Part shown: positions 3,747 to 36,321 of the stretch, one piece after another
How positions within the stretch are numbered: position 1 is the first letter of the stretch
How the letters are laid out: each line of letters opens with the position of its first letter
Source: a virus
DNA: 39,805 bases
Direction: 5' to 3' (one strand)
Virus record (IMG/VR): IMGVR_UViG_3300045988_129469
Span: 1 to 39,805 of that record
Notes under the pieces: generated by a model
What the model was told of the DNA's origin: nothing
Database searches by the model: none
Seen by the model: only the letters and a program-made list of their open reading frames with translations
Translations under genes and position numbers: made by a program

Positions 3747-4556
3747 TTACCTCCACGGGCTCAAGTAGCGCGGGGTGACCTCTAGGGTCAGGCCCGCGCC
3801 CAGTTGGAAACTATTCTTTGTGTGTGGCTGCAGCGTCTCCCCTACGAGCACGCCGCGCAGCGAAGACCACGTGCCAGAATCAACCACGCCATTGGCGTCG
3901 GTGACCTGGCCTTGCATGCCGCGCTCCAAATCAATCCACCGAGTGCCCGGGCCACTGCCCAAGCTGACACGCAGCCCGCTAGGCAAGGTGAAACTGGTTG
4001 AGCGCCCATCCCATTTCAGGCGAAGTTTCGGCGGCAAATCACCCGGAACCGTCACAGTGACGTTACCCGTGTATGTCCTAATACCCCCAGACCAGACGCC
4101 AGAAAAGTTCTCCCACTTAATCTCATCCTCCATAACGTGCAACCCCACGAAAGAAGACGGCAGCGGAGCAGCGTCCGCCAGCACAACCTCAATCTCCGAG
4201 GTATGCCCGTCGCGCCACTCCACCTTCAGCTTCCCCGGCTGGGTGTATGACCAGGCCGCACGCCACCGCCGGAAAGCCACCGACAAATCCTCAACATCAT
4301 CAGTTACGAGAACGTTCAGACTGCCGGAAATCGGTGGAACCTTAAACCCCGTGCGGCGCACACCGTAGCGCGTCACCGTCTCATGGGTCGTATGGTCCAC
4401 CTTCCCCTCACCACCGTCAAAGCCTTCCGCCAAGAGGAGGACGGACTGCTGCCCACGCTGGTGAGGGTCAGCAATCCGAAACTGGTCACCAGAGGGGGCG
4501 ACCACCGTAATAGTTATCGGGTCACGGTAAATGGACCGCGAGTTGAAGAACCCCAT
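3747..4556 (-). CDS. Distal tail protein (Dit-position, 269 aa)
   Basis: Start overlaps the TMP stop (TAATG). Canonical position immediately downstream of the tape measure. Confidence 0.7.
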   Translation of the reverse strand: MGFFNSRSIYRDPITITVVAPSGDQFRIADPHQRGQQSVLLLAEGFDGGEGKVDHTTHETVTRYGVRRTGFKVPPISGSLNVLVTDDVEDLSVAFRRWRAAWSYTQPGKLKVEWRDGHTSEIEVVLADAAPLPSSFVGLHVMEDEIKWENFSGVWSGGIRTYTGNVTVTVPGDLPPKLRLKWDGRSTSFTLPSGLRVSLGSGPGTRWIDLERGMQGQVTDANGVVDSGTWSSLRGVLVGETLQPHTKNSFQLGAGLTLEVTPRYLSPWR

Positions 4557-13200: not shown

Positions 13201-14466
13201 CTAAGCAGCCGCCTCTTCGCCAGCGCCTGCACCAGAGTTAATGGTGCCGGTCACGAACGCAGCCGGGCGAGGAACCATCAGCCCCAGGCGCTCCTCGGCG
13301 CGCAAGGTGGTCAGGTTGTTCTCGAAATCGTCCACGTTGGAGTTAGTAGCATCGACGCGGATACCGCCCTTGCGCAGCACGGTCGCGCCCTGGCGGAATG
13401 CGCCCACCATGTACTTTCCCTTCTCGACCGCTGGGGTGGATACAACGTTAAGGCCCCAGATGGACGGATTGAGGATAATGCCACCGTTGCCGTACTGGCC
13501 CTGGAATGGGCCACCGGCGAGGTACTGGCCATTATTATCCTTAGCGATGCGCAGGGACTGGAAGTCAGACGGGTTCAGCAGGATACCGTCCGCGGTAAGC
13601 GGGGTAACCAGAGCGACCATCTGGATAGCTTCCAGTAGGCCGTCGAAAGCGTCACCGCTACCAATGTCCAGCTGCTGAATACCCTCGCGATTAAACAGAC
13701 CAGTCAGGTTAGAGCCCTGACCGTCACCCTTGAGCAACTGCTCCTCTTCCTTAACGGAAAGGTCGTAGACCAGCTGCTGGTTGATGTAGTCCGCGAGGAA
13801 CGGAAGATCCTCAATCATCTCGTCGGAAATCTTGGTCAGCGCCGCAACCTTAGCCGGGGACTCGGTGACCAGCTCGAGCGGGTTGTAGCGCACGAAGGGC
13901 TTCTTCGCGCCCTCGGCGACAGTCTCCGGTCCGCCCTCGGCGATACGCTGCGCCTTCTCCACCAGGTACTTGATGACCGCACCGTTCATGCGGGCAGAGC
14001 CCATGATGTCGGCTGCTACCAGACGCTCACGGCGCTGGTTGACGATAGCGCGCTGGTACTCGGCGGCATAGCCATCGATAACGCCCTGGCCCTGCGCAGA
14101 GGTCAGGGACGGGTCAGAGGCGGCCTTAAACTCCGGTGCCTGCACCGCGAGGTGGTCGCCCGCGGAGAAAGCCTTAAGTCGTGGCTCCGCGTGCTTGATG
14201 AAGTGGTCGCCCAGGCTCTTGGCTGCTTCCACGCCGGTGTTCTTGGTGTCTTCGTCGGCGTCATCGTAGTCGTTGGAGAATGCGGCGCGCAGGTTAACCT
14301 GCTTCTGTGCCTTCTCAATGCGGGAGTCGAAGTCCGCGGCCTTGGCCTGGAAATCCTCCACGGTTGCCAGGTCCTCGTCGGTCAGGCCGTCGGGGTTCTC
14401 GTCCAGAATCTTCTTCGCCTTGGCTACTACGTCAGCCTTGGCTGCCTTCAGCTGCTTGATGTTCAC
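13201..14466 (-). CDS. Major capsid protein, HK97 fold (421 aa)
   Basis: Charged coiled-coil delta-like N-terminus (MNIKQLKAAKADVVAKAKKIL...). Size and position after the prohead protease. GTG start with AGGAG upstream. Confidence 0.9.
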   Translation of the reverse strand: MNIKQLKAAKADVVAKAKKILDENPDGLTDEDLATVEDFQAKAADFDSRIEKAQKQVNLRAAFSNDYDDADEDTKNTGVEAAKSLGDHFIKHAEPRLKAFSAGDHLAVQAPEFKAASDPSLTSAQGQGVIDGYAAEYQRAIVNQRRERLVAADIMGSARMNGAVIKYLVEKAQRIAEGGPETVAEGAKKPFVRYNPLELVTESPAKVAALTKISDEMIEDLPFLADYINQQLVYDLSVKEEEQLLKGDGQGSNLTGLFNREGIQQLDIGSGDAFDGLLEAIQMVALVTPLTADGILLNPSDFQSLRIAKDNNGQYLAGGPFQGQYGNGGIILNPSIWGLNVVSTPAVEKGKYMVGAFRQGATVLRKGGIRVDATNSNVDDFENNLTTLRAEERLGLMVPRPAAFVTGTINSGAGAGEEAAA

Positions 14467-21439: not shown

Positions 21440-21707
21440 CGAGGATTTCCTTGATGGTCAAAGTATCGGGGCTGTCCAGTATGTAGACGGGGACCTCTAG
21501 GTTTCGTAGTTTCTTGTGTTGAAGGTTTTGGAGAGGTCGTGGTTTCTGGCCAGGAGCTTTTACTTCGATGAATCCCATTTTTCCGCCAGGGAGGATTATG
21601 AGCCGGTCGGGCATTCCTGCTGTTCCTGGGCTGGTGAATTTTGGACAGTACCCGCCTCGTTCTTTGGTGAGTGATACTAGTTTTCGTTCAATCACTTTTT
21701 CGAGCAT
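21420..21707 (-). CDS. VRR-NUC domain nuclease (95 aa)
   Basis: PD-(D/E)XK signature GMPDRLII...GFIEVK. This is the usual partner of a phage SNF2 helicase. Confidence 0.8.
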   Translation of the reverse strand: MLEKVIERKLVSLTKERGGYCPKFTSPGTAGMPDRLIILPGGKMGFIEVKAPGQKPRPLQNLQHKKLRNLEVPVYILDSPDTLTIKEILDAIQSA

Positions 21708-21718
21708 TATTTTTTCTT

Positions 21719-21734
21719 CTTTTGTTGATGGGGG
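21719..21734 (-). repeat. 16-mer CCCCCATCAACAAAAG (minus), copy 1
   Basis: Exact match to 30233..30248. Lies 11 nt upstream of the VRR-NUC start codon. Confidence 0.9.
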
Positions 21735-21972
21735 AACAAACGGAACGGTATTTCTACTTAGGTAATGGGTTTAGGCAGTATGTGTGCATTTTTGTACATA
21801 CTGTTCCCTATTTCTCTATATAGTCTTTAGGTATATTTTTTGTTCCACTTGTTCCACATACGATGTTTCTGCTGTATGGGGCGGCTATCCGCCCCGGAAC
21901 AATAGCCGGAACAATCTGGAAGTTTGGGGCATTTGTTCCGGGGCGGAACAAAGCTGTGCTAAGCCTTGTTCC
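21733..21972. repeat. Iteron cluster plus AT-rich stretch: candidate origin of replication
   Basis: GGAACAA at 21733, 21896, 21908 and 21945. TTGTTCC at 21840, 21849, 21933 and 21966. Degenerate copies at 21742 and 21801. Palindrome TTGTTCCGGGGCGGAACAA at 21933..21951. Hairpin at 21878..21895. Confidence 0.7.
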
Positions 21973-21984
21973 TCCGCTTTTTCA

Positions 21985-24498
21985 CTACCTCGCGTCTAGA
22001 ACATTCGTTCTTGATTCGGCGCGTTGGAAGACCCTCTGTTTCCCGTAGATAGGCAGCCTTCGCTGTACCCCGTTGTCTTCCCAGCCGTCGATTTGGCGCA
22101 TGATTGCAGTGATTTCGTAGGCGTCAATTCGGCGCATGGTGTCAGGGTCGCGGCCGAATGCTTCGGCCCAGATTTCCATCTTCGATACGCTCGTCCTCTG
22201 GTAGTACTGGTCGGCCAGGCCGGTTGCGTGGTAGTGGTCTGGGAGTGTTTCGCCGTCGAGCCAGATGCGGCGCATACCCAGTGGCAGGACATCCCAGTTT
22301 CCGGGGAGTGTTTTATCGAGGTATTCGGCGACGATTCCGACGCGGTCGTCGGCTTCTACACTTTCGGCTTGGATGTGTTCGGCGGTGTGGAGTAGGTCGC
22401 CGGTGAGGTAGAGTTTTTCTCCTTGTTTGTCGCGGTGGCGTGCTTCTGCCCAGAGTTGGTCGATGGTTTGTTGGGTAAGCGTGTGTGGTTTGCCGAGCCA
22501 GCCTTGGCCGGTGACGTGTACGGGCCACCAGCGGCGGTTGCCTGTGGTGTCGCGCAGGAAGCCCTCATCGGCGTTGGTGGAGCCGACGATGATGCCTTGG
22601 CGTGGGAAGCTTTGTACGTTGCGCCCGTAGGCGGGGCGGTACTTGTCCTCTGTCCTTGAGATGAAGCCTTTGACTGGTTCGGCTTCTGCTTTGCGCATGC
22701 CGGCGAGCTCGGAGAGTTCGACGATGAGGTTGCCGGCGAGTTTTTCGGCGGCGGTCTTGTCTTTCATGTCGGTGATGGTTAGTGAGTCGGAGAACCAGGG
22801 GTCGGCCATGCGGTTGAAGATGGTGGATTTGCCGGCGCCTTGGGGGCCTACGAGGGTGAGGACTTGGTCGAATTTGCAGCCGGGGTTGAAGGTGCGGCGG
22901 TGGGCGGCGACGAAGGTTTTGCGGGTGACTGCGCGGACGTAGTCGGTGTTGTCGGCGCCGAGGGTGTCGATTAGGAGTGTGTCGAGTCGTTCTATTCCGT
23001 CCCATGGTGGGAGGTGGTTGAAGTAGTCGCGGACGGGGTGGAATGCGCGTTTGGTGGCGGTGGAGAGTAGTGCGTCGTTCATTTTGGTGGGTGCATAGAG
23101 TCCGCCGTAGGTGCGGGCTATGTGTGTTTTGAGTTGGGCTTCGTCGTTGTCGGTCCAGCCGGGGTTGATTTGGTCCCATGGGAGGGCTTGTGGGTCTTGG
23201 ACTTCGAGGTGGTTGGCGTGGGAGTTCCAGGCGATGTGGTTGATGTGTGGGTCGTGGGTGAGGATGAGTTCGAAGTTTCCGATGGTGTCTTTGAAGGTGC
23301 CGTCTTTTTTGGTTTCGAGTTGGGTGAGCCAGGCGGTGGGGTCGTTGGTGTTCTCCCCTTCCTCGGATGGTGCTGCGTCGTCCTCTTCGCCGCGCGCGTC
23401 CTGGCCCTCGGTGATGGGCTGGAAGACGTCGTTGATTTTGGCCGCGGTGGCTTTCGCGTTTTCAGCGCGCGTGGCGGCGTCTTGGTTGATGAAGTCCATC
23501 ATGGCGAGGTAGCTGGGTTTCTTGTTGGCTGGTGTGCCGGCTTCGGTGTCTGTGTCTAGGTCGCCGTATTTGTGGATGCGGACGAGGTCGAAGGCTGCGT
23601 GGGAGTGTCCGTCGGCGGCAGGGTCGGTGGCGTGCTGGCTGTAGGCGTAGTGGCCTTGGTTGTAGATGATGAGGCCGTTAGAGGAGGTGCCGCCGGTGTA
23701 GGTGTAGCGGTCCTTTGTGGTGCCGGGTTTGTAGACGTCTGCGAGGAAGGTTGTGATGGCGGTGGGGATTGGGTAGGCGCGGTTGAAGGCGCCGAGCATG
23801 CCAGGTTTGTCGCGCGGGTCATCAAGCTTGCCGGTGGCTTGGAATGCTTTGGCTTGTTCGGGTGTGATGCCGGGCCAGGTGGTGACGTCTTGCCAGGTGT
23901 CGTAGCGGTCGAGGTAGTCGTCGGGGTTGAGAATGTCCTTTTTCGAGCTGACCTCGACGTGGTAGTCGCCGTCTTCGAGGGTGGCGGGCCAGTAGAAGAA
24001 TCGTTCTGGTTCGAAGGTGGTGGGGTCGAACCATGCGAGTCCGGGGTTGATGTCTTGGGCTACTCGGCGGGCGACGGCGCCGTATTCGTCGGCGGTGACG
24101 TCGCGGGTCAGCCATACCCAAATGCGCCATCGTTGTTCGGCGTCGAGGTGGCTGAGTGTGGTGTGGGCGAGCCAGGCGTAGGGGACGGTGTCGGCCAGGG
24201 CGGCGGGGAGGTCTACATCTTCGGGGATGTTGTCGAGGTCGAGGGTGATGAGGCTGCGGGTGAGGATGTGGCCTTTGCGGCGGCGCCCGTGTTTGAGGTG
24301 ACCACCGACGAAACCGCCTACGTCTTTGTTCTTGTCGCGCTCGGCCTTGGTCATCTTCTTGTATTCGTCTTTGGTGCAGTTGACGATGATGGGCTCATAC
24401 GCGCGCGCGGTGAGGTCTTGGAGGGTGGTGAGTGTGTTGGTCCAGTGGGAGGAGGTACGGGTGGTGGCGGTGGCGATTTTGAGTTCGCGGTTTTTCAT
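21985..24498 (-). CDS. DNA primase / SF3 (P4-D5-type) helicase (837 aa)
   Basis: Walker A LVGPQGAGKST in the C-terminal half, with a large N-terminal primase-like region. Start set to the ATG at 24498 (GGAGGAG 9 nt upstream). The track's Pro/Arg-rich N-terminal extension was rejected. Confidence 0.8.
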   Translation of the reverse strand: MKNRELKIATATTRTSSHWTNTLTTLQDLTARAYEPIIVNCTKDEYKKMTKAERDKNKDVGGFVGGHLKHGRRRKGHILTRSLITLDLDNIPEDVDLPAALADTVPYAWLAHTTLSHLDAEQRWRIWVWLTRDVTADEYGAVARRVAQDINPGLAWFDPTTFEPERFFYWPATLEDGDYHVEVSSKKDILNPDDYLDRYDTWQDVTTWPGITPEQAKAFQATGKLDDPRDKPGMLGAFNRAYPIPTAITTFLADVYKPGTTKDRYTYTGGTSSNGLIIYNQGHYAYSQHATDPAADGHSHAAFDLVRIHKYGDLDTDTEAGTPANKKPSYLAMMDFINQDAATRAENAKATAAKINDVFQPITEGQDARGEEDDAAPSEEGENTNDPTAWLTQLETKKDGTFKDTIGNFELILTHDPHINHIAWNSHANHLEVQDPQALPWDQINPGWTDNDEAQLKTHIARTYGGLYAPTKMNDALLSTATKRAFHPVRDYFNHLPPWDGIERLDTLLIDTLGADNTDYVRAVTRKTFVAAHRRTFNPGCKFDQVLTLVGPQGAGKSTIFNRMADPWFSDSLTITDMKDKTAAEKLAGNLIVELSELAGMRKAEAEPVKGFISRTEDKYRPAYGRNVQSFPRQGIIVGSTNADEGFLRDTTGNRRWWPVHVTGQGWLGKPHTLTQQTIDQLWAEARHRDKQGEKLYLTGDLLHTAEHIQAESVEADDRVGIVAEYLDKTLPGNWDVLPLGMRRIWLDGETLPDHYHATGLADQYYQRTSVSKMEIWAEAFGRDPDTMRRIDAYEITAIMRQIDGWEDNGVQRRLPIYGKQRVFQRAESRTNVLDAR

Positions 24499-24535
24499 GG
24501 GTGGTTTCTCCTCCATGGGTTGGGTGGTTTTGGGT

Positions 24536-24567
24536 ATTAAAAATGGCCCCGCGGTATGTGCGGGGCC
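24536..24567 (-). terminator. Intrinsic terminator/attenuator upstream of the primase gene
   Basis: GGCCCCGC-7 nt-GCGGGGCC stem, followed on the minus strand by AUUUUUAA. Confidence 0.6.
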
Positions 24568-24581
24568 TGGTGGTGTGTGGG

Positions 24582-24842
24582 CTAGTGGGCGCGGGGGTTG
24601 ATGGCCGTCTTTAGCTTGTATCCGAGTTCGCTTAATGCTTTTGCGAGTGCGTCGGGGTTGGTGGGGTGACCGATGGTTTCGGGCTGGGCGGTGCGTGCCA
24701 TACGGTTGGCATACTGCACTGCCATGCCCCATTCAGGAAAGCGGCGGCCTTGGGGCCTTTCCCACCAGTTCTCATGGGCGGGTATTGCTATCCAGCGCAG
24801 CCACCTATCCTCATGGTCTTTGTAGACTCGCCAGCGTCTCAT
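24582..24842 (-). CDS. Hypothetical protein (86 aa)
   Basis: ATG at 24842 with GGAGGA 4 nt upstream. ATGA overlap with the upstream gene. The track start was rejected. Confidence 0.6.
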   Translation of the reverse strand: MRRWRVYKDHEDRWLRWIAIPAHENWWERPQGRRFPEWGMAVQYANRMARTAQPETIGHPTNPDALAKALSELGYKLKTAINPRAH

Positions 24843-31382: not shown

Positions 31383-31506
31383 GTGACTAAAGATTGCCAC
31401 AGTTGACTATCGGCTGCAATACACCCTACATTTTTCACCCCCGGTGGACACCCTCGCCACATGTAACAAGCTGCACAAATGGCAGTTGACTACAGATTGC
31501 TATAAA
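31383..31506. promoter_or_regulatory. Divergent immunity-switch region: three 15-bp operator-like repeats and promoter elements
   Basis: gTGACTAaaGatTGC (31383), tTGACTAtcGgcTGC (31403), tTGACTAcaGatTGC (31486). TTGACT-18 nt-TACATT at 31403..31432. Extended -10 TGcTATAAA at 31498..31506, 9 nt before the repressor ATG. Confidence 0.6.
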
Positions 31507-31515
31507 GTGTTTCCC

Positions 31516-32016
31516 ATGAACGTTAATGACTGGCTAATCGACCTCAAGGGCGAGGACTCAATGCGCGCCGCCTCCAAAAAAAGTGGATATGCGCAAACCA
31601 CCCTCCAGCGACAGATCGACAAGGGAGTCCTATCACCTGAGATGGTCATTGCCTTATGTCGCGCTTATGACCGCTCCCCCGTCTCAGGCCTTATCGAAAC
31701 CGGCTACATCAACGACTACGAGCTACACGGCCCCGACGTGGAAATAGCCCTCCGTGAAGCCACTAATGAGCAGCTGCTAGACGAAATCATGCGCCGTTCC
31801 GACCCCCAGGCGCGCTACCTATTCGGCAATGAGGGAGATGGGGACACCATCGGTCTAGCCCCACATCTCACCCCCGTGTCCGATGCATCTGCTTCACTGC
31901 ATGGTGATGATGATGGCCTGGTCGAGGAGTGGGATGATTCCGTACCGCACGCGGCGGATAGTAGCCCCGACGAGCAGGCCGAACGTGAAAAGCGAGGTGA
32001 GGATTTGATTGATTAA
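31516..32016 (+). CDS. Immunity repressor, HTH N-terminus with acidic C-terminal tail (166 aa)
   Basis: ATG at 31516. HTH-like SKKSGYAQTTLQRQIDKGVLS. Divergent from cro and followed by ImmA. Confidence 0.7.
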   Translation: MNVNDWLIDLKGEDSMRAASKKSGYAQTTLQRQIDKGVLSPEMVIALCRAYDRSPVSGLIETGYINDYELHGPDVEIALREATNEQLLDEIMRRSDPQARYLFGNEGDGDTIGLAPHLTPVSDASASLHGDDDGLVEEWDDSVPHAADSSPDEQAEREKRGEDLID

Positions 32017-32386
32017 CACCGATGCCCTCATTGATGTGGCGCAGCGACGCGGGTATCGGGTGAGGTGGCATCGTGGCGGGCCGAAAGCAGCATGGCTCCC
32101 CCACCGGAACACCATCACCCTGCGCGTAGGAATGGACGACACAACCACCCTGTGTTCTCTCGCCCACGAGCTAGGCCACGCTCACTACGGCGACCCACCT
32201 GGCCACCATGGCGCCCATGAGCTACGCGCCGACAGGTTCGCCGCCCGCTTATTGATTAACCCCGTCGACTACGCCACTGCCGAAGCAATCTACGGACCAC
32301 ACCCGGCCACCCTGGCGCACGAGCTAGGCGTCACGGTCAAAGTCCTAAAAACTTGGCAATCTCTCTACGAAAGGCAAGCAGCATGA
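32009..32386 (+). CDS. ImmA/IrrE-family zinc metallopeptidase (125 aa)
   Basis: HEXXH motif (AHELGHAHYGD). TTG start overlapping the repressor stop, with GAGGTGAGGA upstream. Confidence 0.85.
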   Translation: MINTDALIDVAQRRGYRVRWHRGGPKAAWLPHRNTITLRVGMDDTTTLCSLAHELGHAHYGDPPGHHGAHELRADRFAARLLINPVDYATAEAIYGPHPATLAHELGVTVKVLKTWQSLYERQAA

Positions 32387-33018
32387 CTAATCAGTCCCCC
32401 TATTCCCAGCAGCAGGAAGAACCGCAGAAAAGGAAGCCGTGGTGGAAGCGCTGGTGGGTAATTCTCATCATCATCTTTGTCCTCATGGTCATTATCGGGA
32501 TGTTCCGCGAGGACACCCCAACTGATACTTCTACTGGTTCGGATGAGGCCGCTACAGAGCAGGCCCCGGCCGAGGACAAGCAAGAGGAGGAATCTAAGGA
32601 GGAAGAAGCCCCCGCGGACGAGGAAACTGCGCAGCAGGAAGAAGCGCAGCAGGAAGAGGTACAGCCGGAGGAAGAAAAGAAAAACACCGTGAATGTGGCC
32701 GGCCAAGACTGGGAATGCCAGCCAGTTCCGGATGAGACGATGCAGCGAATCATGGGCGGCGATAAGTGGGACGATGGTGCCCACGCCACTGTGGATAAGG
32801 CTGTCATGGTCCAGGGCGCGGACAACAACTTCATCGCAGCGAATATCGCTTGGGAAGGTGAAGATGAACCATTTGCCGCGGACTTCACCGCACCAGTGGA
32901 CGGTAGTGGCCCGATTACTTCCGCAAGCCCCGGCACCGCGGAGCTGTTCAACTGGCCGGAAACGCCGGGCGGCCCGTTCGACGGCACCGACGCCGCTAAG
33001 GAGTGCTTAGCGCAGTAA
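32383..33018 (+). CDS. Single-pass membrane protein with acidic low-complexity linker and Cys-containing exodomain (211 aa)
   Basis: ATG at 32383 overlaps the ImmA stop (ATGA). TM helix WWVILIIIFVLMVIIGMF. E/Q-rich linker. C-terminal ~120 aa with 2 Cys. Confidence 0.75.
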   Translation: MTNQSPYSQQQEEPQKRKPWWKRWWVILIIIFVLMVIIGMFREDTPTDTSTGSDEAATEQAPAEDKQEEESKEEEAPADEETAQQEEAQQEEVQPEEEKKNTVNVAGQDWECQPVPDETMQRIMGGDKWDDGAHATVDKAVMVQGADNNFIAANIAWEGEDEPFAADFTAPVDGSGPITSASPGTAELFNWPETPGGPFDGTDAAKECLAQ

Positions 33019-33024
33019 AACTGG

Positions 33025-33065
33025 GGGTGGCCCCGTGGAGCTGAGCTCAATACACGGGGCCACCC
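33025..33065. terminator. 13-bp perfect inverted repeat at the convergent junction
   Basis: GGGTGGCCCCGTG-15 nt-CACGGGGCCACCC. A second 7-bp hairpin lies at 33071..33093. Confidence 0.6.
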
Positions 33066-33181
33066 TATAAGGCCCACGGGGGGGATGTGGGCCACCAGCA
33101 GTATAAGACAAGACCGCGCCCAGCGCTCGGCAAGGGAAAGATCACTAGAGACTAGGGGCATCACCAGGGCCGTTGGCCCCC

Positions 33182-34078
33182 TTAGACCAACGTCGAAGAT
33201 TCAGAAATGCCACGGATTGCGTCAATCCGATATACCGGCTTTCCTATTCGTCCACTATTGAATTTCAATCGTTGAGCTGTAATTGTTGCAGTAACTTTCT
33301 TGTCGATATATCGAGGCATTTGCTGAACTAGTTCAGCCTCAATTGTTCCCGTCAATTCCGTTCCGTTGTCGCACTCAAGGAAAAATTGGCGGCGCCGGGA
33401 ACGCATTCCGTCCAGTCGGCCAGTAACTTTCATCTGCCACGTCTCAGGTTTGGAGTCACTTAAATTCTCCCAAAGTACGTTAGCTTGATCCGCAGTAAGG
33501 ATACCTTCTGAAGTTACCGCGCCGTCTAAGCTGAGCCCGAGGCGGATTGACTTTCTAAACTTACGTAGAGTTTCAGACAGTTTATATAAACCGTTTCTTT
33601 CCACATCTAGTAGCGCCAGCGCATTATCAAGGGACGCGTCATCATCTTCAGAGCTTGGCAAAGATAACGCTAAGTTTTCAGCAGATTTCTCCCCTAATGA
33701 AGGCAGGCTGGATTCATCTATAAGCGGGGTTTGTGGGTCGTCGGCCGGCTGGGTAAAACCAAAAACAATACGGTTGCCCGAAGACGCAACATTGCGAAGT
33801 CCAACCTTTTTATGGAATCGGTTGCTCATTCGCGCATTGGTCGTGTGTGGATCATCAAACGCTTTGGCAAAATATGCTGTGCTATTGGAGATAGTCTTGG
33901 CAACTTCAGAGCTCAGATACGCTTCAACCTCAGCTCCTAGAATGTCGACATTAAGATAGGCTTGGCGCGGAGGAAAGAATTTAGATTCTGCAGCCAAAAG
34001 TGAACTCTGAAAAATTCGTGATGCAAAAGTTCCATCATTGTCAATGGACTCCAATTGCTGTCTAAATGGATTGGTCAT
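33182..34078 (-). CDS. Unknown protein (298 aa), partner of the NTase-like gene in the AT-rich cassette
   Basis: ATGA overlap with the upstream gene. Helical N-terminus containing RMSNRFH (Rx5H), an acidic linker, and a beta-rich C-terminus. No family recognised. Confidence 0.75.
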   Translation of the reverse strand: MTNPFRQQLESIDNDGTFASRIFQSSLLAAESKFFPPRQAYLNVDILGAEVEAYLSSEVAKTISNSTAYFAKAFDDPHTTNARMSNRFHKKVGLRNVASSGNRIVFGFTQPADDPQTPLIDESSLPSLGEKSAENLALSLPSSEDDDASLDNALALLDVERNGLYKLSETLRKFRKSIRLGLSLDGAVTSEGILTADQANVLWENLSDSKPETWQMKVTGRLDGMRSRRRQFFLECDNGTELTGTIEAELVQQMPRYIDKKVTATITAQRLKFNSGRIGKPVYRIDAIRGISESSTLV

Positions 34079-34593
34079 ATTCTCACCTCCGCAAACCCTT
34101 TTGTGAGTTCTTCGATAATTATGTCGTCGAGTTTGACTCTACTCCAAATGCCTCGCCAATAATCACGATTTTCAAATGGACTAATGAACGCATCCAGCAT
34201 TCCCGCCATCGGTTGGACTCGCGGTACAAGACCATCACTCGTCACGTTTGAAGAGACATCTTGGTGGGTAATTGATGACCAAAGTCTCTTCTGCCCCTCA
34301 CTGTCGAGACTATTTATGCATTCCCAATCGTCGGGAAATATCACTATGTCTACGTCGTTCGGTGGTGCATTCTTTCTCATAGAGAATCCGCCGTCAATCC
34401 ATATCGATGCCGGGCCAACTAATGGTCGAATCCAATTTAGATAAAGCGTTAGTGCGTTAAACAGCACTTCACGTTCATCTTTGTTAGGAGCATCATCGAC
34501 AAACCTGTCATGGATACCTTGCAAATCCGTAGGCCATGCCCCTTCGGGAAGAATATTTTCATCCGTCCAATTGGGTAAACTCACCCGGCGCAT
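34075..34593 (-). CDS. Minimal nucleotidyltransferase-fold protein (MNT / DUF6932-like, 172 aa)
   Basis: IWIDGGFSMRKNAPPNDVDIVIF fits the Pol-beta NTase G[GS]-x(9-12)-DxD pattern. The N-terminal LPEG...H...F segment resembles my memory of the DUF6932 family. Confidence 0.6.
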   Translation of the reverse strand: MRRVSLPNWTDENILPEGAWPTDLQGIHDRFVDDAPNKDEREVLFNALTLYLNWIRPLVGPASIWIDGGFSMRKNAPPNDVDIVIFPDDWECINSLDSEGQKRLWSSITHQDVSSNVTSDGLVPRVQPMAGMLDAFISPFENRDYWRGIWSRVKLDDIIIEELTKGFAEVRI

Positions 34594-34649
34594 CCCTTCT
34601 TGCTCTGTTCAAACCTCTACGTATGTTAGCTGCAGTAAGGCGCAGGTAC

Positions 34650-34672
34650 ACTTATTTTCTGAAAAAATAAGT
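34650..34672. terminator. AT-rich hairpin separating the integrase from the cassette
   Basis: ACTTATTTT-CTGAA-AAAATAAGT (9-bp stem), 17 nt after the integrase stop. Confidence 0.45.
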
Positions 34673-34688
34673 AACTAATGCCCGTCGA

Positions 34689-35972
34689 CTACTTTGTGTC
34701 CATAGCCATCTCTGCCCCTTGCCCCTGTTTCTGTTTCTGGCTCCGCTTCGCGTCTAGGTCTCCCACCCCATCGGGGACTGTCAGTGTGGCATTCACCGCG
34801 TCGAGGACAGCTGCCTTACGGTCATCCGTGGCGCGCATATACACCTCAGTGATGGTGCGCAGGTCCCGCTGGCCAAGGAACTCACCAATCGCGGGAATGG
34901 GCATACCAGCCTCAGCTAGCGTCGTAATAACCCAGTTACGGCCATAGTGCGGGGTAATGGTCACACCCTTATGCCCGGCGCGCGTCTTCGCCCGGTCGAG
35001 AATAGACCTATAAGAAGTATCGGTAACGATCTTTCCAGCGCCAGTAGTAAACAGCATCGCGCCGCGCGCGGCGGCGGTGCGGTGTTTCAGATGCCAGCGC
35101 ACGTCATCATGGAAAGCGGGGAAAATGGGAATAGTGCGGTAGCCGGCGTCGGTTTTGACGGTGTCTTTGCGTACCATGCCCACGCCTGGTTCTTGGGAGC
35201 GGTAGCAGTTGCCGCGGATGTGGATGAGGATTGTCTCTCCCTGGTCCTCGATGTCACCGCGGCGCAGGCCCAGTGCTTCACCAATCCGCAGCCCATGGAA
35301 GAAGGTGAGGATGGCGATGAGTTTGTGGCTGCCGTCAACGCGTGGCTTGGTGTGGTCGAGTTCGTTGACGATGTCTTGGAGTATTTGGCGGGTGGGGAGT
35401 TCTTTCTTTTTGAGTTTGGGGCGTTTGGTGGCTTCTTTGAGGGTGACGGGGTTGGCGGGAATCATGTCGCGTTCTACTGCTGCAGCTAGTGCGGTGCGCA
35501 GTCGCTTGTAGGTGTTGAAGCAGGCGGTGGGGGCGTGGTCGATGGTGATGGCGTCCCACCAGGCGGCGATGTCGCGCTTGGTGAGTTGGGTGAGTGGTAT
35601 GTCGCGAAGGCGGGCTGCTTTGCCGCTTGCCTGGGTGATGCGTAGGCGGATGTCTTTGGCGTAGTTCTGGGCGGTGGAGGGCTCGAGTGCGTCTGGGCCG
35701 TGGGAGCGTAGTTGCATCCATTCGTCCATCCATTGGCCTACGGTGCGGGCCTTGTCCTCGCGTGACTGGGTGCGGGTGGCCGGTGGGGTCCATTCGTCGA
35801 ATTCGATGAGCCGTTGCTCGGCGCGTAGCCATGCGGCGGCGTCGTCGGGTGATTGGTAGGTGCGTGGGGCTTTGTGGCGTTTGCCGTCGGGGCCTTTGTA
35901 GTAGGCGCGATAACGGCCTGATTTAAGGGGTTCGATGGAGCCGAATTGGCGGCGTCGTGGGGCTGGGGACAT
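34689..35972 (-). CDS. int: Tyrosine integrase (427 aa)
   Basis: Arm-binding-type N-terminus (SGRYRAYYKGPDGKRH). Catalytic motifs HGLRIGEALGL, HYGRN (HxxR) and LGQRDLRTITEVYMRA (Tyr). Confidence 0.95.
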   Translation of the reverse strand: MSPAPRRRQFGSIEPLKSGRYRAYYKGPDGKRHKAPRTYQSPDDAAAWLRAEQRLIEFDEWTPPATRTQSREDKARTVGQWMDEWMQLRSHGPDALEPSTAQNYAKDIRLRITQASGKAARLRDIPLTQLTKRDIAAWWDAITIDHAPTACFNTYKRLRTALAAAVERDMIPANPVTLKEATKRPKLKKKELPTRQILQDIVNELDHTKPRVDGSHKLIAILTFFHGLRIGEALGLRRGDIEDQGETILIHIRGNCYRSQEPGVGMVRKDTVKTDAGYRTIPIFPAFHDDVRWHLKHRTAAARGAMLFTTGAGKIVTDTSYRSILDRAKTRAGHKGVTITPHYGRNWVITTLAEAGMPIPAIGEFLGQRDLRTITEVYMRATDDRKAAVLDAVNATLTVPDGVGDLDAKRSQKQKQGQGAEMAMDTK

Positions 35973-36016
35973 GTGGTGAATCCTGTGGGGCTTGGTTGGG
36001 GATTTTGTGGGACTTG

Positions 36017-36055
36017 CGTGGGACTAGAAGGCGTTTCGTGGGACTAGCGTGGAAC
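36017..36055. repeat. Arm-type integrase-binding repeats, int-proximal arm (3 x GTGGGACT)
   Basis: GTGGGACT at 36017, 36028 and 36048. The last two sit within CGTGGGACTAG. Confidence 0.6.
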
Positions 36056-36135
36056 CCGAGTGCTTCTAACTGCACGTTACTGCACGCACCAGACATGTGC
36101 CATAACCCCAGCTCAAACCCACAAAACAAGAAAAA

Positions 36136-36165
36136 GCCCCAGCTAGAACACAATCTAGCTGGGGC
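36136..36165 (-). terminator. Strong intrinsic terminator abutting the attP core
   Basis: 12-bp perfect stem GCCCCAGCUAGA / UCUAGCUGGGGC with a 6-nt loop, followed on the minus strand by UUUUUCUUGUUUUG. Confidence 0.75.
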
Positions 36166-36168
36166 CTA

Positions 36169-36191
36169 TCGGTGGAGCTGCCGGGAATTGA
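36169..36191 (-). other. Putative attP core resembling the 3' end of ssrA (tmRNA)
   Basis: Minus strand TCAATTCCCGGCAGCTCCACCG. This is a T-loop/T-stem remnant plus the conserved tmRNA acceptor 3' strand CAGCUCC-A-CC. Confidence 0.5.
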
Positions 36192-36237
36192 CACAATAAC
36201 CACACTGCCACGCCAAATAAGAAACCATAAAGCTCAC

Positions 36238-36256
36238 GTGGGACCAACATGGGACT
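36238..36256. repeat. Arm-type repeats, distal arm (GTGGGACC, ATGGGACT)
   Basis: Same orientation and consensus as the three int-proximal copies. Confidence 0.5.
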
Positions 36257-36280
36257 GCATAAAGGGAAAACCAGCCCCCA

Positions 36281-36320
36281 AAAACGCAGAAAAGACCCCC
36301 ACCCCGCGAAGGGGTGAGGG
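36281..36320 (-). terminator. Intrinsic terminator of the late/lysis operon
   Basis: 10-bp GC stem (1 mismatch) with loop GCGAA, starting right after the stop at 36322. Followed on the minus strand by UCUUUUCUGCGUUUU. Confidence 0.7.
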
Positions 36321-36321
36321 T

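What the first reader, a model, noticed from the sequence alone, without database searches (positions are those of the whole stretch)
33182..34593. Compositionally foreign two-gene cassette (MNT/DUF6932-like nucleotidyltransferase + unknown 298-aa partner) in the prophage defence slot
This is the only markedly AT-rich coding DNA in the window. Hand counts give 39 G+C per 100 nt at 33241-33340, against 61 at 13301-13400 and 55 at 35401-35500. It is bracketed by hairpins (34650..34672 upstream; 33025..33093 and 33167..33179 downstream). It lies between the integrase and the immunity operon, the place where actinophage prophages are known to carry lysogen-expressed defence genes.

Gene 1 (172 aa) has the minimal Pol-beta nucleotidyltransferase signature IWIDGGFSMRKNAPPNDVDIVIF, with an N-terminal LPEG..H..F segment I associate with the uncharacterised DUF6932 family. 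Gene 2 overlaps it by ATGA, which indicates a strict operon. It has no motif I recognise. Its helical N-terminus contains RMSNRFH, which matches the Rx4-6H spacing of HEPN RNases, though this is only a weak hint. An acidic disordered linker and a beta-rich C-terminal domain follow.

The architecture is reminiscent of MNT-HEPN (type VII toxin-antitoxin) pairs, but both proteins are larger and divergent. I rate it the best candidate for an undescribed toxin-antitoxin or abortive-infection / anti-phage system acquired horizontally.
Basis: partly seen in the sequence, partly recalled or inferred. Interest (0 to 1): 0.8.

Follow-up and report, generated by a model that had tools for sequence, protein, structure and literature searches.

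The report
Prophage nucleotidyltransferase plus OB-fold partner operon
A Corynebacterium prophage carries an AT-rich, horizontally acquired two-gene operon, a small nucleotidyltransferase (DUF6932) coupled to a 298-aa protein ending in an OB-fold, that recurs beside the repressor and integrase of many actinobacterial prophages; it belongs to an already catalogued but functionally untested phage-defence candidate (PADLOC PDC-M63) and is not an MNT-HEPN toxin-antitoxin pair.

Summary
Two minus-strand genes, A (34075-34593, 172 aa) and B (33182-34078, 298 aa), overlap by ATGA. Their G+C is 0.46, against 0.587±0.017 elsewhere (z = -7.5). They lie between a tyrosine integrase and a convergent repressor/ImmA operon.

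A is a full-length Pfam DUF6932 protein with a Pol-beta nucleotidyltransferase (NTase) fold and an intact G-G/D80-x-D82/D134 set. It hits PADLOC PDC-M63A at 2.7e-16.

B has no Pfam family. Its AlphaFold model is confident (pLDDT 95.7): an N-terminal alpha/beta region, a conserved acidic LPxxxxDD segment and a basic C-terminal OB-fold with an invariant G-x-L-D-G-x-R-x-x-R-x-F motif. It is not HEPN: R83 is unconserved and H89 is Arg in 87 of 89 homologues. Other members of B's family hit PDC-M63B (best 2.6e-13).

A-then-B adjacency held in every locus examined. Among prophages the pair is often co-transcribed with the immunity repressor (M. abscessus MabG, Gordonia phage Holliday). In Pseudonocardiaceae it is a syntenic chromosomal locus.

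So this is a divergent member of a catalogued, unvalidated defence candidate. The most likely function is a lysogen-expressed NTase/OB-fold toxin-antitoxin-like or abortive-infection module; the mechanism is inferred, not shown.

The parts
34075..34593 (-). Gene A: 172-aa DUF6932 protein, a small Pol-beta-fold nucleotidyltransferase
   Evidence: ORF. Pfam PF22014 DUF6932 at E = 1.4e-19, 71.4 bits against a cut-off of 27, covering residues 7-170. PADLOC PDC-M63A at E = 2.7e-16. phrog_9194 at 5e-12. AlphaFold2 pLDDT 94.8. All top Foldseek PDB matches are Pol-beta NTases, but weak (best E = 0.033).
34348..34392 (-). NTase motif G68-G69 ... D80-V-D82 of gene A. The third carboxylate, D134, is at 34192-34194.
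   Evidence: Read from the sequence. Among 89 distinct homologues, G68 is kept in 88, D82 in 86 and D134 in 89. D80 is kept in only 35, but in all 9 prophage-borne copies.
34075..34078 (-). ATGA overlap: the stop codon of A overlaps the start codon of B (translational coupling)
   Evidence: An equivalent ATGA or GTGA junction appears in nearly all 83 homologous loci.
33182..34078 (-). Gene B: 298-aa partner protein with no Pfam family and a three-part architecture
   Evidence: ORF. No significant Pfam, NCBIfam, PADLOC or PHROG hit of its own. Its family has 113 representatives at 50% identity, almost all about 300 aa. All 95 aligned members match a profile of the top 26 at E <= 1.5e-19. Five of the 95 hit PADLOC PDC-M63B, best 2.6e-13. 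AlphaFold2 pLDDT 95.7, pTM 0.86.
33638..33661 (-). Conserved acidic motif L140-P141-x4-D146-D147 in the middle region of B
   Evidence: P141 and D146 are invariant in 89 of 89 distinct homologues. The middle region has net charge -7. It is modelled confidently, not as disorder.
33203..33454 (-). C-terminal OB-fold domain of B (about aa 209-292), carrying the invariant G220-x-L-D223-G224-x-R226-x-x-R229-R230-x-F232 motif (33377-33421)
   Evidence: The secondary structure is beta1-3, helix, beta4-5. The only Foldseek PDB matches are OB-folds (IF1, CspA, CusF/SilF, Rim1 SSB, BrxL N-terminal region), best E = 3e-3. Invariant residues. Net charge +7.
34594..34688 (-). AT-rich (G+C 0.42) 95-nt spacer between the integrase stop and the start of A. 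It holds a 9-nt perfect inverted repeat (34650-34672) and an AGAAGGG ribosome-binding site. It is a possible own promoter or operator, which is an inference.
   Evidence: hairpin z = -2.3. No sigma-70-type consensus promoter was found in the spacer.
33025..33093 (.). Strong bidirectional terminator between the convergent A-B operon and the immunity operon
   Evidence: 13-bp perfect G+C-rich stem plus a 7-bp stem; folding z = -6.0 on the minus strand and -5.4 on the plus strand. It lies in DNA shared with phage IME1320_01, whose homology runs to 33138.
34689..35972 (-). Tyrosine integrase, immediately upstream and co-directional (context)
   Evidence: Pfam Phage_integrase at 1.7e-12. G+C is 0.606, native to the phage. 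The same int-A-B order occurs in a C. striatum prophage, locus L004.
31444..33018 (+). Convergent lysogeny/immunity operon (context): 190-aa repressor-like protein, ImmA/IrrE metalloprotease, 221-aa acidic protein
   Evidence: Peptidase_M78 at 6.5e-9. 90% DNA identity to phage IME1320_01, which lacks the cassette. The 190-aa protein is homologous to the gene that directly precedes A-B in locus L088.

Best explanation
**What is shown.** The cassette is a horizontally acquired two-gene accessory operon ('moron') in the lysogeny module of a Corynebacterium temperate phage. It is a divergent actinobacterial member of the gene pair that PADLOC lists as phage-defence candidate PDC-M63.
- Gene A is a small DUF6932 enzyme with the Pol-beta nucleotidyltransferase fold and a complete catalytic set (G68-G69, D80, D82, D134).
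- Gene B is translationally coupled to A. It has an N-terminal alpha/beta region, a conserved acidic LPxxxxDD segment and a basic C-terminal OB-fold with an invariant Arg cluster.
- A and B are always adjacent, co-diverge and are under purifying selection.

**What is inferred.**
- The two proteins form a complex that is made in the lysogen. In several related prophages the pair sits in one operon with the immunity repressor.
- The complex works as a toxin-antitoxin-like or abortive-infection guard against superinfecting phages.
- The OB-fold of B binds a single-stranded nucleic acid or an oligonucleotide.
- The NTase either holds B in check or uses B as its substrate-recruiting subunit. Holding B in check would be by nucleotidylylating it or by making a nucleotide ligand, as the NTases of MntA-HepT, Hailong and Clover do. 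Substrate recruitment would let A add nucleotides to RNA or tRNA 3' ends, as MenT and AbiEii do.
For: **Identity of A**
- Pfam DUF6932 at 1.4e-19 over the full length.
- PDC-M63A at 2.7e-16.
- AlphaFold2 pLDDT 94.8.
- The top Foldseek PDB hits listed are almost all Pol-beta NTases: TUT7, CCA-adding enzyme, ANT(6), HI0073, CdnE, GLD-2, Pol mu/lambda.
- The catalytic residues are conserved in all prophage copies.

**Identity of B**
- A coherent family of about 300-aa proteins.
- Confident model with a C-terminal OB-fold.
- Invariant R226, R229 and R230, and an OB domain with charge +7.
- Whole-length structural matches to uncharacterised phage proteins, including a DUF6575-annotated one at E = 3.3e-12.

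**Link to PDC-M63**
- Five of 95 family members hit PDC-M63B.
- The bridging protein P0115 scores 2.6e-13 to PDC-M63B, 4.4e-4 to the window protein in a 1.8-billion-protein library and 1.5e-19 to the family core profile. It is itself preceded by a DUF6932 gene with a 4-nt overlap.

**A and B as an obligate pair**
- A lies immediately upstream of B in 83 of 83 loci found through B.
- B follows A in every A-seeded viral locus with room for it.
- The NTGA overlap is conserved.
- Pairwise divergences of A and B correlate at r = 0.95.
- dN/dS is 0.15-0.18 for both genes.

**Expression in the lysogen and mobility**
- The order repressor-A-B with 4-nt overlaps occurs in M. abscessus MabG prophages and locus L088, and A and B overlap likewise in L091, where the upstream gene is cut by the contig end. 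Dietzia (L006) has the same repressor-like gene-A-B order.
- Gordonia phage Holliday has the same repressor-A-B' order.
- The cassette is absent from phage IME1320_01, which has the same immunity operon at 90% identity.
- The pair is AT-shifted relative to its flanks in six different hosts.

**Independent defence association**
- PDC candidates were chosen because they are embedded inside BREX, DISARM or type I RM loci (bioRxiv 10.1101/2024.01.29.577857).
- The repressor-integrase interval of actinophages is a documented site of lysogen-expressed defence genes (cited in PMC9934374).
Against: - No experiment shows defence, toxicity or enzymatic activity for any member.
- The one published test of PDC-M63AB (deletion from an E. 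coli NILS69 prophage, 10 phages) found no defence phenotype.
- In Pseudonocardiaceae the pair is a syntenic chromosomal locus with native G+C, seen in at least 60 species-level genomes. This is unusual for a mobile defence system and fits a housekeeping role.
- In the Amycolatopsis clade the first catalytic Asp is replaced by Gly, yet the gene stays under purifying selection. Catalysis may therefore not be essential to the conserved function.
- The window's own B protein does not reach any PDC-M63B model.
- B has no recognisable effector domain: no nuclease, pore or NADase.
- In this window the pair follows the integrase rather than the repressor, and no consensus promoter was found.
- Foldseek support for the NTase fold is consistent but weak (best E = 0.033, TM 0.34).
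Confidence: 0.45

Rival explanations
1. Non-defence cellular function. A and B form a split terminal nucleotidyltransferase, with a catalytic subunit and an OB-fold RNA/ssDNA-binding subunit. It tails, repairs or marks RNA or tRNA 3' ends, as GLD-2 does with its RNA-binding partners. Prophages merely carry copies as fitness morons.
For: The pair is a syntenic chromosomal locus with native composition across Amycolatopsis, Saccharomonospora and Prauserella. It is under purifying selection there. The best structural matches of A are terminal uridylyl/adenylyl transferases and CCA-adding enzymes. The OB hits of B are RNA- or ssDNA-binding proteins such as IF1, CspA and SSB.
Against: The largest chromosomal clade has lost catalytic D80. 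The pair is patchy outside Pseudonocardiaceae, and where seen it sits at prophage ends. It is AT-shifted, and therefore mobile, in six hosts. The wider family was picked up embedded in BREX, DISARM and RM loci.
Confidence: 0.2
2. Prophage-selfish module. The pair is an addiction-type toxin-antitoxin system that stabilises the prophage, or an accessory input to the lysogeny switch, rather than a defence against other phages.
For: In the M. abscessus MabG prophages, L088 and Gordonia phage Holliday, A and B sit in one operon with the immunity repressor, and Dietzia L006 has the same order; L091 places the pair next to an integrase with its upstream gene cut by the contig end. The pair is always next to the integrase. 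Gene overlap and tight co-inheritance are typical of toxin-antitoxin pairs.
Against: Phage IME1320_01 has the same immunity operon at 90% identity and lacks the pair, so it is dispensable for immunity and induction. The partner repressors belong to different families, and the pair's position and orientation relative to the integrase vary. Chromosomal copies exist without any prophage.
Confidence: 0.15
3. One reading: a divergent MNT-HEPN (MntA-HepT, type VII) toxin-antitoxin pair, in which gene 2 is a HEPN RNase that uses R83...H89.
For: A small NTase gene lies upstream of an overlapping partner gene, as in MntA-HepT. The MNT protein HI0073 (1no5) and an MNT-HEPN complex (7bxo) appear among weak Foldseek matches of A.
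Against: R83 is not conserved, and H89 is Arg in 87 of 89 homologues. The model of B is alpha/beta plus OB-fold, not a HEPN helical bundle, and no HEPN structure appears among the matches listed by the PDB fold search. Neither protein gives a HEPN or NTP_transf_2 Pfam hit at E <= 1.
Confidence: 0.03
4. Counter-defence. The phage uses A and B to repair or shield tRNA or nucleic-acid ends that are attacked by host defence systems.
For: The NTase fold resembles CCA-adding and tailing enzymes. The partner has an OB-fold. The genes are phage-borne.
Against: The pair sits in the lysogeny module and is co-transcribed with repressors, not with early lytic genes. Stable chromosomal copies exist in non-prophage contexts.
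Confidence: 0.07

Closest known systems
PADLOC phage-defence candidate PDC-M63 (PDC-M63A + PDC-M63B; cassette CAS_00189, FAM_00167>>FAM_00523, of Payne et al., bioRxiv 10.1101/2024.01.29.577857)
   Same: Gene A hits the PDC-M63A model at 2.7e-16. Gene B is homologous to proteins that hit PDC-M63B, best 2.6e-13. The sizes (about 160-170 aa and about 300 aa), the order A then B and the 4-nt overlap are the same. The E. coli NILS69 copy is also prophage-borne.
   Different: The window's own B protein is below detection by every PDC-M63B model, so PADLOC would not call the system here. This is an actinobacterial branch. PDC-M63 is only a computational candidate, with unknown mechanism and one negative functional test.
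MntA-HepT (MNT-HEPN) type VII toxin-antitoxin systems
   Same: A minimal Pol-beta NTase is encoded upstream of an overlapping partner. In that system the NTase controls its partner by nucleotidylylation (established knowledge; PMC13000451 was listed). That is a plausible working analogy for A and B.
   Different: The partner here is not HEPN: no conserved Rx4-6H and a different fold. A carries a conserved N-terminal LPxW...LPxG extension and matches DUF6932, not the MNT Pfam family.
NTase toxins AbiEii and MenT (DUF1814), with antitoxins AbiEi and MenA
   Same: These are two-gene, NTase-based toxin-antitoxin or abortive-infection modules, common in Actinobacteria. The NTase acts on tRNA 3' ends (my own knowledge of the literature, not tested here).
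   Different: Those NTases are larger (about 250-300 aa), are encoded second and belong to another family. Their partners are wHTH or other antitoxins, not an OB-fold protein. Neither A nor B hit any PADLOC model other than PDC-M63A (A) and a weak PDC-M02A match (B, E = 0.025).
Guard-type NTase systems: Hailong (HalB NTase + HalA channel) and Clover (CloB NTase + CloA dNTPase)
   Same: These are two-gene defence operons in which a small NTase constitutively makes an oligonucleotide or nucleotide that keeps the effector off (review PMC13434031). An OB-fold partner that could bind such a product fits this logic.
   Different: Their effectors are a membrane ion channel and a dNTPase, whereas B has neither feature. 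No sequence relationship was detected. This is purely a mechanistic analogy.
Lysogen-expressed defence genes of actinophage prophages in the integrase-repressor interval (the Phrann, Sbash and CarolAnn systems cited in PMC9934374)
   Same: The genomic slot and the expression logic are the same. M. abscessus MabG prophages (prophiGD21-3 genes 3 and 2; phiT46-1 genes 38 and 37) and Gordonia phage Holliday (gp53 and gp52) carry A-B homologues directly after the immunity repressor.
   Different: The proteins are unrelated. None of the published actinophage defence systems uses a DUF6932 or OB-fold pair. The M. abscessus and Gordonia homologues are annotated only as 'nucleotidyltransferase' or 'hypothetical protein'.

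Membership tests
Pfam DUF6932 (PF22014) | Whole-protein score above the curated gathering threshold, with full-length coverage of the model | tested here: met
   71.4 bits against a cut-off of 27. E = 1.4e-19. Residues 7-170 cover model positions 1-141 of 142.
Pol-beta-type nucleotidyltransferase superfamily | The hG[GS]-x9-13-[DE]h[DE]h motif plus a third carboxylate on a later strand | tested here: met
   G68-G69, then 10 residues, then D80-V-D82, and D134. D82 and D134 are near-invariant. D80 is kept in all prophage copies but lost in 47 of 89 homologues.
Pol-beta-type nucleotidyltransferase superfamily | The alpha-beta-alpha-beta-alpha-beta NTase core fold | tested here: inconclusive
   The model is confident (pLDDT 94.8). 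The top 50 Foldseek PDB matches listed are almost all NTases, but each match is weak (best E = 0.033, TM 0.34).
Pol-beta-type nucleotidyltransferase superfamily | Nucleotidyl-transfer activity | not testable with these tools
   Requires biochemistry.
PADLOC PDC-M63 | Protein A matches a PDC-M63A model | tested here: met
   PDLC04744 at E = 2.7e-16 and PDLC04745 at 9.5e-5.
PADLOC PDC-M63 | Protein B matches a PDC-M63B model | tested here: not met
   The window's B protein gives no hit at E <= 1. Homology is only transitive: 5 of 95 family members hit PDC-M63B. P0115 bridges the two, with 2.6e-13 to PDC-M63B and 4.4e-4 to the window protein.
PADLOC PDC-M63 | A and B adjacent and co-directional | tested here: met
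   ATGA overlap in the window. The same arrangement holds in 83 of 83 homologous loci.
MNT-HEPN (type VII toxin-antitoxin) | The partner carries the HEPN Rx4-6H catalytic motif | tested here: not met
   The R83 column is Y/F/Q/I/S in homologues. The H89 column is Arg in 87 of 89.
MNT-HEPN (type VII toxin-antitoxin) | The partner has the all-alpha HEPN fold | tested here: not met
   The model is alpha/beta plus a C-terminal OB-fold. Fold-search matches are OB-fold proteins only.
Toxin-antitoxin system (general) | One component is toxic and the other neutralises it | not testable with these tools
   Only the gene overlap and co-inheritance are shown.
Anti-phage defence system (general) | Confers resistance to phage infection | not testable with these tools
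   The literature has one negative test of PDC-M63AB in E. coli NILS69 and no test of any actinobacterial member.
Anti-phage defence system (general) | Genomic association with defence loci or prophage defence hotspots | tested here: inconclusive
   The prophage lysogeny-module location was seen in the window and about eight other prophage lineages, and PDC selection was by embedding in BREX, DISARM or RM loci. Against this, at least 60 Pseudonocardiaceae copies lie in a conserved non-defence chromosomal context.
OB-fold nucleic-acid-binding domains (S1/IF1/CSD-like) | Five-stranded beta-barrel with a helix between strands 3 and 4 | tested here: met
   DSSP on the pLDDT 98 region gives strands 209-226, 231-236 and 241-246, a helix at 254-257, and strands 261-273 and 282-290. 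Foldseek matches to IF1, CspA, CusF and SSB have probability about 1.0 and E = 3e-3 to 5e-2.
OB-fold nucleic-acid-binding domains (S1/IF1/CSD-like) | Binds nucleic acid | not testable with these tools
   Only suggested, by the invariant R226, R229 and R230 and a net charge of +7. CusF and SilF, which bind metal, are equally good structural matches.

The most novel reading that the evidence does not exclude
The DUF6932/OB-fold pair is a mechanistically new class of prophage-encoded immunity. A minimal nucleotidyltransferase continuously loads or modifies an OB-fold partner that has no canonical effector domain, using an oligonucleotide or a covalent nucleotide. Infection is sensed when a phage factor strips or competes for that ligand. 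The freed OB-fold protein then blocks translation or replication by binding RNA or ssDNA directly. This would be a guard system whose effector is a nucleic-acid-binding protein rather than an enzyme or a pore. The Amycolatopsis chromosomal copies, which lack the first catalytic Asp, would represent a domesticated non-catalytic derivative.
Probability: 0.2. Interest if true: 0.75.

Novelty: new member of a known kind. Interest (0 to 1): 0.5.

Why it matters
- **Where it occurs.** The pair is a conserved, co-evolving module in the lysogeny region of prophages of medically relevant Actinobacteria. These include Corynebacterium striatum/simulans-type phages, Mycobacterium abscessus MabG prophages such as phiT46-1, and Dietzia and Gordonia phages. 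In these hosts prophage-encoded defences shape susceptibility to therapeutic phages.
- **What is unknown.** Its biochemistry is entirely unknown. Protein B has no Pfam family and no solved structural relative.
- **What this work adds.**
  - It links an actinobacterial branch to PADLOC's PDC-M63.
  - It identifies the partner as an OB-fold protein and rules out HEPN.
  - It defines precise residues to mutate: D80, D82 and D134 in A; P141, D146, D223, R226, R229 and R230 in B.
- **What a positive result would mean.** A defence phenotype would validate one of the 145 untested PDC candidates and add an NTase/OB-fold mechanism to the defence repertoire.
- **What a negative result would mean.** Combined with the syntenic Pseudonocardiaceae locus, it would point to an uncharacterised RNA- or DNA-end-modifying activity.

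Tried and rejected
- **HEPN in gene 2.** Rejected on residue conservation and predicted fold.
- **Sequence searches of A, B and the B-family profile against all PDB sequences.** No hit even at E <= 10.
- **Pfam, NCBIfam, PADLOC and PHROG scans of B itself.** Nothing significant.
- **Pfam scan of all 95 B-family members at E <= 10.** No recurrent family, and no DUF6575 signal despite the structural match to a DUF6575-annotated phage protein. I could not determine from the held text or supplements which validated PD- system of Vassallo et al. 2022 contains DUF6575.
- **Literature searches.** 'DUF6932' found no paper. 'PDC-M63' found only the NILS69 study. The M. abscessus prophage papers do not discuss the pair.
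- **The search for related loci with the broad alignments A1 and A2.** Failed for lack of a sufficiently conserved stretch. The narrower alignment A3 worked.
It was repeated with database proteins.
- **Promoter scan.** No consensus sigma-70 promoter in the integrase-A spacer. The scan is not tuned to Corynebacterium.
- **The 33167-33179 hairpin.** No better than shuffled sequence.
- **Essential part of the immunity circuit.** Considered and rejected, because phage IME1320_01 has the same immunity operon without the pair.


Full report
**1. The observation**

The start of B overlaps the stop of A in the tetranucleotide ATGA.

The compositional anomaly is strong.
- The 1412-bp cassette has G+C 0.460, against 0.587 ± 0.017 (minimum 0.530) for 712 equal-sized windows elsewhere; z = -7.5.
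- GC3 is 0.43 and 0.41, against 0.61-0.74 in the integrase, lysin, primase, tape-measure and immunity genes.
- The change is abrupt at about 33200 and about 34700, so the 95-nt spacer upstream of A belongs to the AT-rich block.
- The only other dip (21500-21900) lies mainly in the gap between the ORFs ending at 21439 and 21985.

Of the hairpins:
- 33025-33093 is a very stable double stem-loop (z about -6 on either strand).
- 34650-34672 has 9-nt perfect AT-rich arms (z = -2.3).
- 33167-33179 is not distinguishable from shuffled sequence.

**2. Genomic setting**

The window is a Corynebacterium temperate phage or prophage.
- Upstream of A, on the same strand, lies a tyrosine integrase (34689..35972).
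- Convergent to B lies a plus-strand operon: a 190-aa repressor-like protein, an ImmA/IrrE Peptidase_M78 and a 221-aa acidic protein (31444..33018).
- An HTH_17 excisionase-type gene, an M23+GH25 lysin and a VapE-like primase/helicase complete the picture.

The nearest GenBank phage is Corynebacterium phage IME1320_01.
- It shares the immunity operon at 90% identity, but the similarity stops at window position 33138 and resumes only at 36277, in the holin/lysin region.
- In between, IME1320_01 has a different integrase in the opposite orientation, and no A or B.
- The segment 33139-36276 is therefore a swapped module, and within it only A-B and their upstream spacer are AT-rich.

**3. Gene A**

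- A is a full-length member of Pfam DUF6932 (E = 1.4e-19, 71.4 bits against a cut-off of 27). It matches phrog_9194.
- It also matches PADLOC PDC-M63A (E = 2.7e-16).
- No PDB sequence matches it.
- An AlphaFold2 model built on 50 database homologues is confident (pLDDT 94.8, pTM 0.88).
- Its Foldseek matches in the PDB are essentially all Pol-beta-fold nucleotidyltransferases: TUT7, CCA-adding enzymes, ANT(6), the MNT protein HI0073, CdnE, GLD-2 and Pol mu/lambda. All are weak (best E = 0.033). The fold assignment is therefore consistent, but A has no close solved relative.
- The sequence carries the canonical G68-G69-x10-D80-x-D82 motif and a third carboxylate, D134.
- Across 89 distinct homologues, G68, D82 and D134 are essentially invariant. 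D80 is retained in only 35, including all nine prophage-borne copies, and is Gly in 47, the Amycolatopsis chromosomal clade.

**4. Gene B**

- B has no significant hit in Pfam, NCBIfam, PADLOC or PHROGs.
- An exhaustive phmmer search of 1.84 billion cluster representatives finds 113 relatives, almost all about 300 aa and aligned end to end.
- All 95 relatives that I aligned match a profile of the 26 closest at E <= 1.5e-19.
- The AlphaFold2 model is very confident (pLDDT 95.7, pTM 0.86, no disordered segment). It shows:
  - an N-terminal alpha/beta region;
  - a helical middle region carrying the near-invariant L140-P141-x4-D146-D147 motif (net charge -7);
  - a C-terminal five-stranded barrel with classical OB topology (net charge +7), whose first strand carries the invariant G220-x-L-D223-G224-x-R226-x-x-R229-R230-x-F232 motif.
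- Foldseek against the PDB matches only the C-terminal domain, to OB-folds: IF1, CspA, CusF/SilF, the mitochondrial SSB Rim1 and the N-terminal region of BrxL.
- Against predicted viral structures there are whole-length matches to uncharacterised phage proteins. One is annotated DUF6575 (E = 3.3e-12). No sequence-level DUF6575 signal exists in the family.
R83 is Y/F/Q/I/S in homologues and H89 is Arg in 87 of 89. The fold is not helical.

**5. The pair is a unit and is already catalogued**

- A scan of one genome per GTDB species found 151 B relatives. In all 83 loci analysed in that step (80 from this scan plus three fetched earlier), a DUF6932 gene lies immediately upstream on the same strand.
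- The ATGA or GTGA stop-start overlap recurs in nearly all of these loci.
- Conversely, every viral contig found through A that has room downstream encodes B.
- Pairwise divergences of A and B correlate at r = 0.95 (0.72 within the prophage-type subset). Both genes are under purifying selection, with median dN/dS of 0.15-0.18.
- Five of the 95 B-family members hit PADLOC PDC-M63B. One of them, P0115, scores 2.6e-13 to PDC-M63B and is itself preceded by a DUF6932 gene with a 4-nt overlap.
- The window's pair is therefore a divergent branch of PDC-M63.
- PDC-M63 is one of 145 'phage defence candidates' chosen because their genes are embedded within BREX, DISARM or type I RM loci. They were added to PADLOC untested (bioRxiv 10.1101/2024.01.29.577857; PDC-M63 = FAM_00167>>FAM_00523).
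- The only functional test I found deleted PDC-M63AB from an E. coli NILS69 prophage and saw no defence against ten phages (bioRxiv 10.1101/2024.12.20.629700).

**6. Two kinds of context**

(a) Prophage lysogeny modules.
- M. abscessus MabG prophages (prophiGD21-3 genes 4-3-2; phiT46-1 genes 39-38-37) have immunity repressor, A (annotated 'nucleotidyltransferase', 38% identical) and B (31% identical) in one overlapping operon next to the integrase.
- The same repressor-A-B order occurs in locus L088 (followed by an integrase), in L091 (upstream gene cut by the contig end, integrase downstream), in Dietzia (L006) and in Gordonia phage Holliday. In Holliday, gp52 is only a marginal B homologue (hhalign 62%, E = 7e-5).
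- C. striatum (L004) shares the window's int-A-B order. In C. hylobatis the pair faces a homologous integrase.
- In these hosts the pair is AT-shifted relative to its flanks, by 0.045-0.12.

(b) A syntenic chromosomal locus in Pseudonocardiaceae.
- At least 60 Pseudonocardiaceae genomes in the scan (Amycolatopsis, Saccharomonospora, Prauserella) carry the pair after an OmpA-like gene and a 132-aa gene. In many it lies near a SARP-type regulator, and near an ectoine operon in the one locus with Pfam annotation (L085).
- There the composition is native.

**7. Interpretation**

Shown:
- A is a DUF6932 protein with a Pol-beta NTase motif and a predicted fold consistent with that family.
- B is an OB-fold protein of a family absent from Pfam.
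- The two form an obligate, co-evolving, translationally coupled pair.
- The pair is mobile, and prophages preferentially place it in the operon or interval expressed during lysogeny.
- It is homologous to PDC-M63.

Inferred:
- A and B form a complex.
- The complex is made in lysogens.
- It acts as a toxin-antitoxin-like or abortive-infection defence.

I consider two mechanistic variants most plausible.
- The NTase acts as a negative regulator of its partner, by nucleotidylylation or by producing a nucleotide or oligonucleotide ligand that the OB-fold binds. The analogy is with MntA-HepT, Hailong and Clover.
- B acts as the nucleic-acid-recruiting subunit of a terminal transferase that modifies RNA or tRNA 3' ends. 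The analogy is with MenT and AbiEii.

The main counter-evidence:
- the negative E. coli test;
- the absence of a recognisable effector domain in B;
- the stable, syntenic Pseudonocardiaceae locus, whose A protein lacks D80 in the Amycolatopsis clade yet remains under selection. This keeps a non-defence RNA- or DNA-end-processing role alive.

I put about 0.45 on the defence/toxin-antitoxin reading, 0.2 on a cellular nucleic-acid-processing role, 0.15 on a prophage-selfish role, 0.07 on counter-defence and 0.03 on MNT-HEPN.

**8. Novelty and score**

- The pair is not an MNT-HEPN system, and it is not 'undescribed' in the catalogue sense. It is a new, divergent member of an existing but uncharacterised candidate family.
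- What is new here:
  - the OB-fold assignment for the B family;
  - the exclusion of HEPN;
  - the strict A-B linkage and co-evolution;
  - the recurrent repressor-A-B arrangement in actinobacterial prophages, including clinically relevant M. abscessus prophages;
  - the existence of a domesticated chromosomal clade with a degenerate active site.
- This makes the pair a good, well-defined target for experiments, but not a startling finding. Interest: 0.5.

Noticed in passing
window 33139-36276: Relative to Corynebacterium phage IME1320_01 this whole segment (A-B, the integrase and the presumed attP region) is a swapped module. Similarity of 90% ends at 33138, and similarity of 78% resumes at 36277. 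IME1320_01 has a different integrase in the opposite orientation. Within the swapped module only A-B is AT-rich; the integrase has native G+C (0.606).
   Followed up: partly
loci L011-L084 (Amycolatopsis clade), column of window gene A residue D80: In 47 of 89 distinct DUF6932 homologues, all chromosomal and mainly Amycolatopsis, the first catalytic Asp is Gly ('RGLDVV'). A and B nevertheless remain under purifying selection there (median dN/dS 0.17 and 0.15). This may be a non-catalytic or altered-chemistry derivative.
   Followed up: partly
window 21500-21900: This is a second AT-rich stretch (G+C 0.37-0.50 per 100 nt). It lies mainly in the gap between the ORF ending at 21439 and the VapE-like primase/helicase gene (21985..24732, minus strand), so it sits downstream of that gene's stop codon. 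It may be a replication origin or a regulatory region.
   Followed up: no
window 32353-33018 (+): The third gene of the immunity operon encodes a 221-aa protein with an N-terminal hydrophobic segment and a long Glu/Gln/Ala/Pro-rich acidic low-complexity region. Its only Pfam hit is below threshold. It is conserved in IME1320_01. It may be a lysogen-expressed membrane or surface protein, for example a superinfection-exclusion candidate.
   Followed up: no
window 36134-36167 and 36295-36321 (minus strand): Two strong terminator-like hairpins (14 and 11 pairs, each followed by a T-rich tail) lie in the non-coding stretch between the holin-like genes and the integrase. The phage attachment site is expected there. 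No tRNA-like sequence was found anywhere in the window.
   Followed up: no
L090 (Gordonia phage Holliday OQ129412) 3971-5501: Holliday gp53 is a DUF6932 protein (PDC-M63A at 7.7e-8). Its downstream partner gp52 (329 aa) is only marginally related to the B family (hhalign probability 62%, 253 co-linear columns). This suggests that DUF6932 pairs with very divergent, or alternative, partners. The PADLOC source table also lists FAM_00167 with another partner family (FAM_01519, a rejected cassette).
   Followed up: partly
BFVD entries A0A8S5QA00, A0A8S5T657 and Q6NE06 (Leptospira phage LE1): These are whole-length structural matches of B to uncharacterised phage proteins (E = 3e-12 to 5e-8), one annotated DUF6575. 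That domain is reported in one experimentally validated E. coli PD- defence system (Vassallo et al. 2022). I could not identify which system, and found no sequence-level link.
   Followed up: partly
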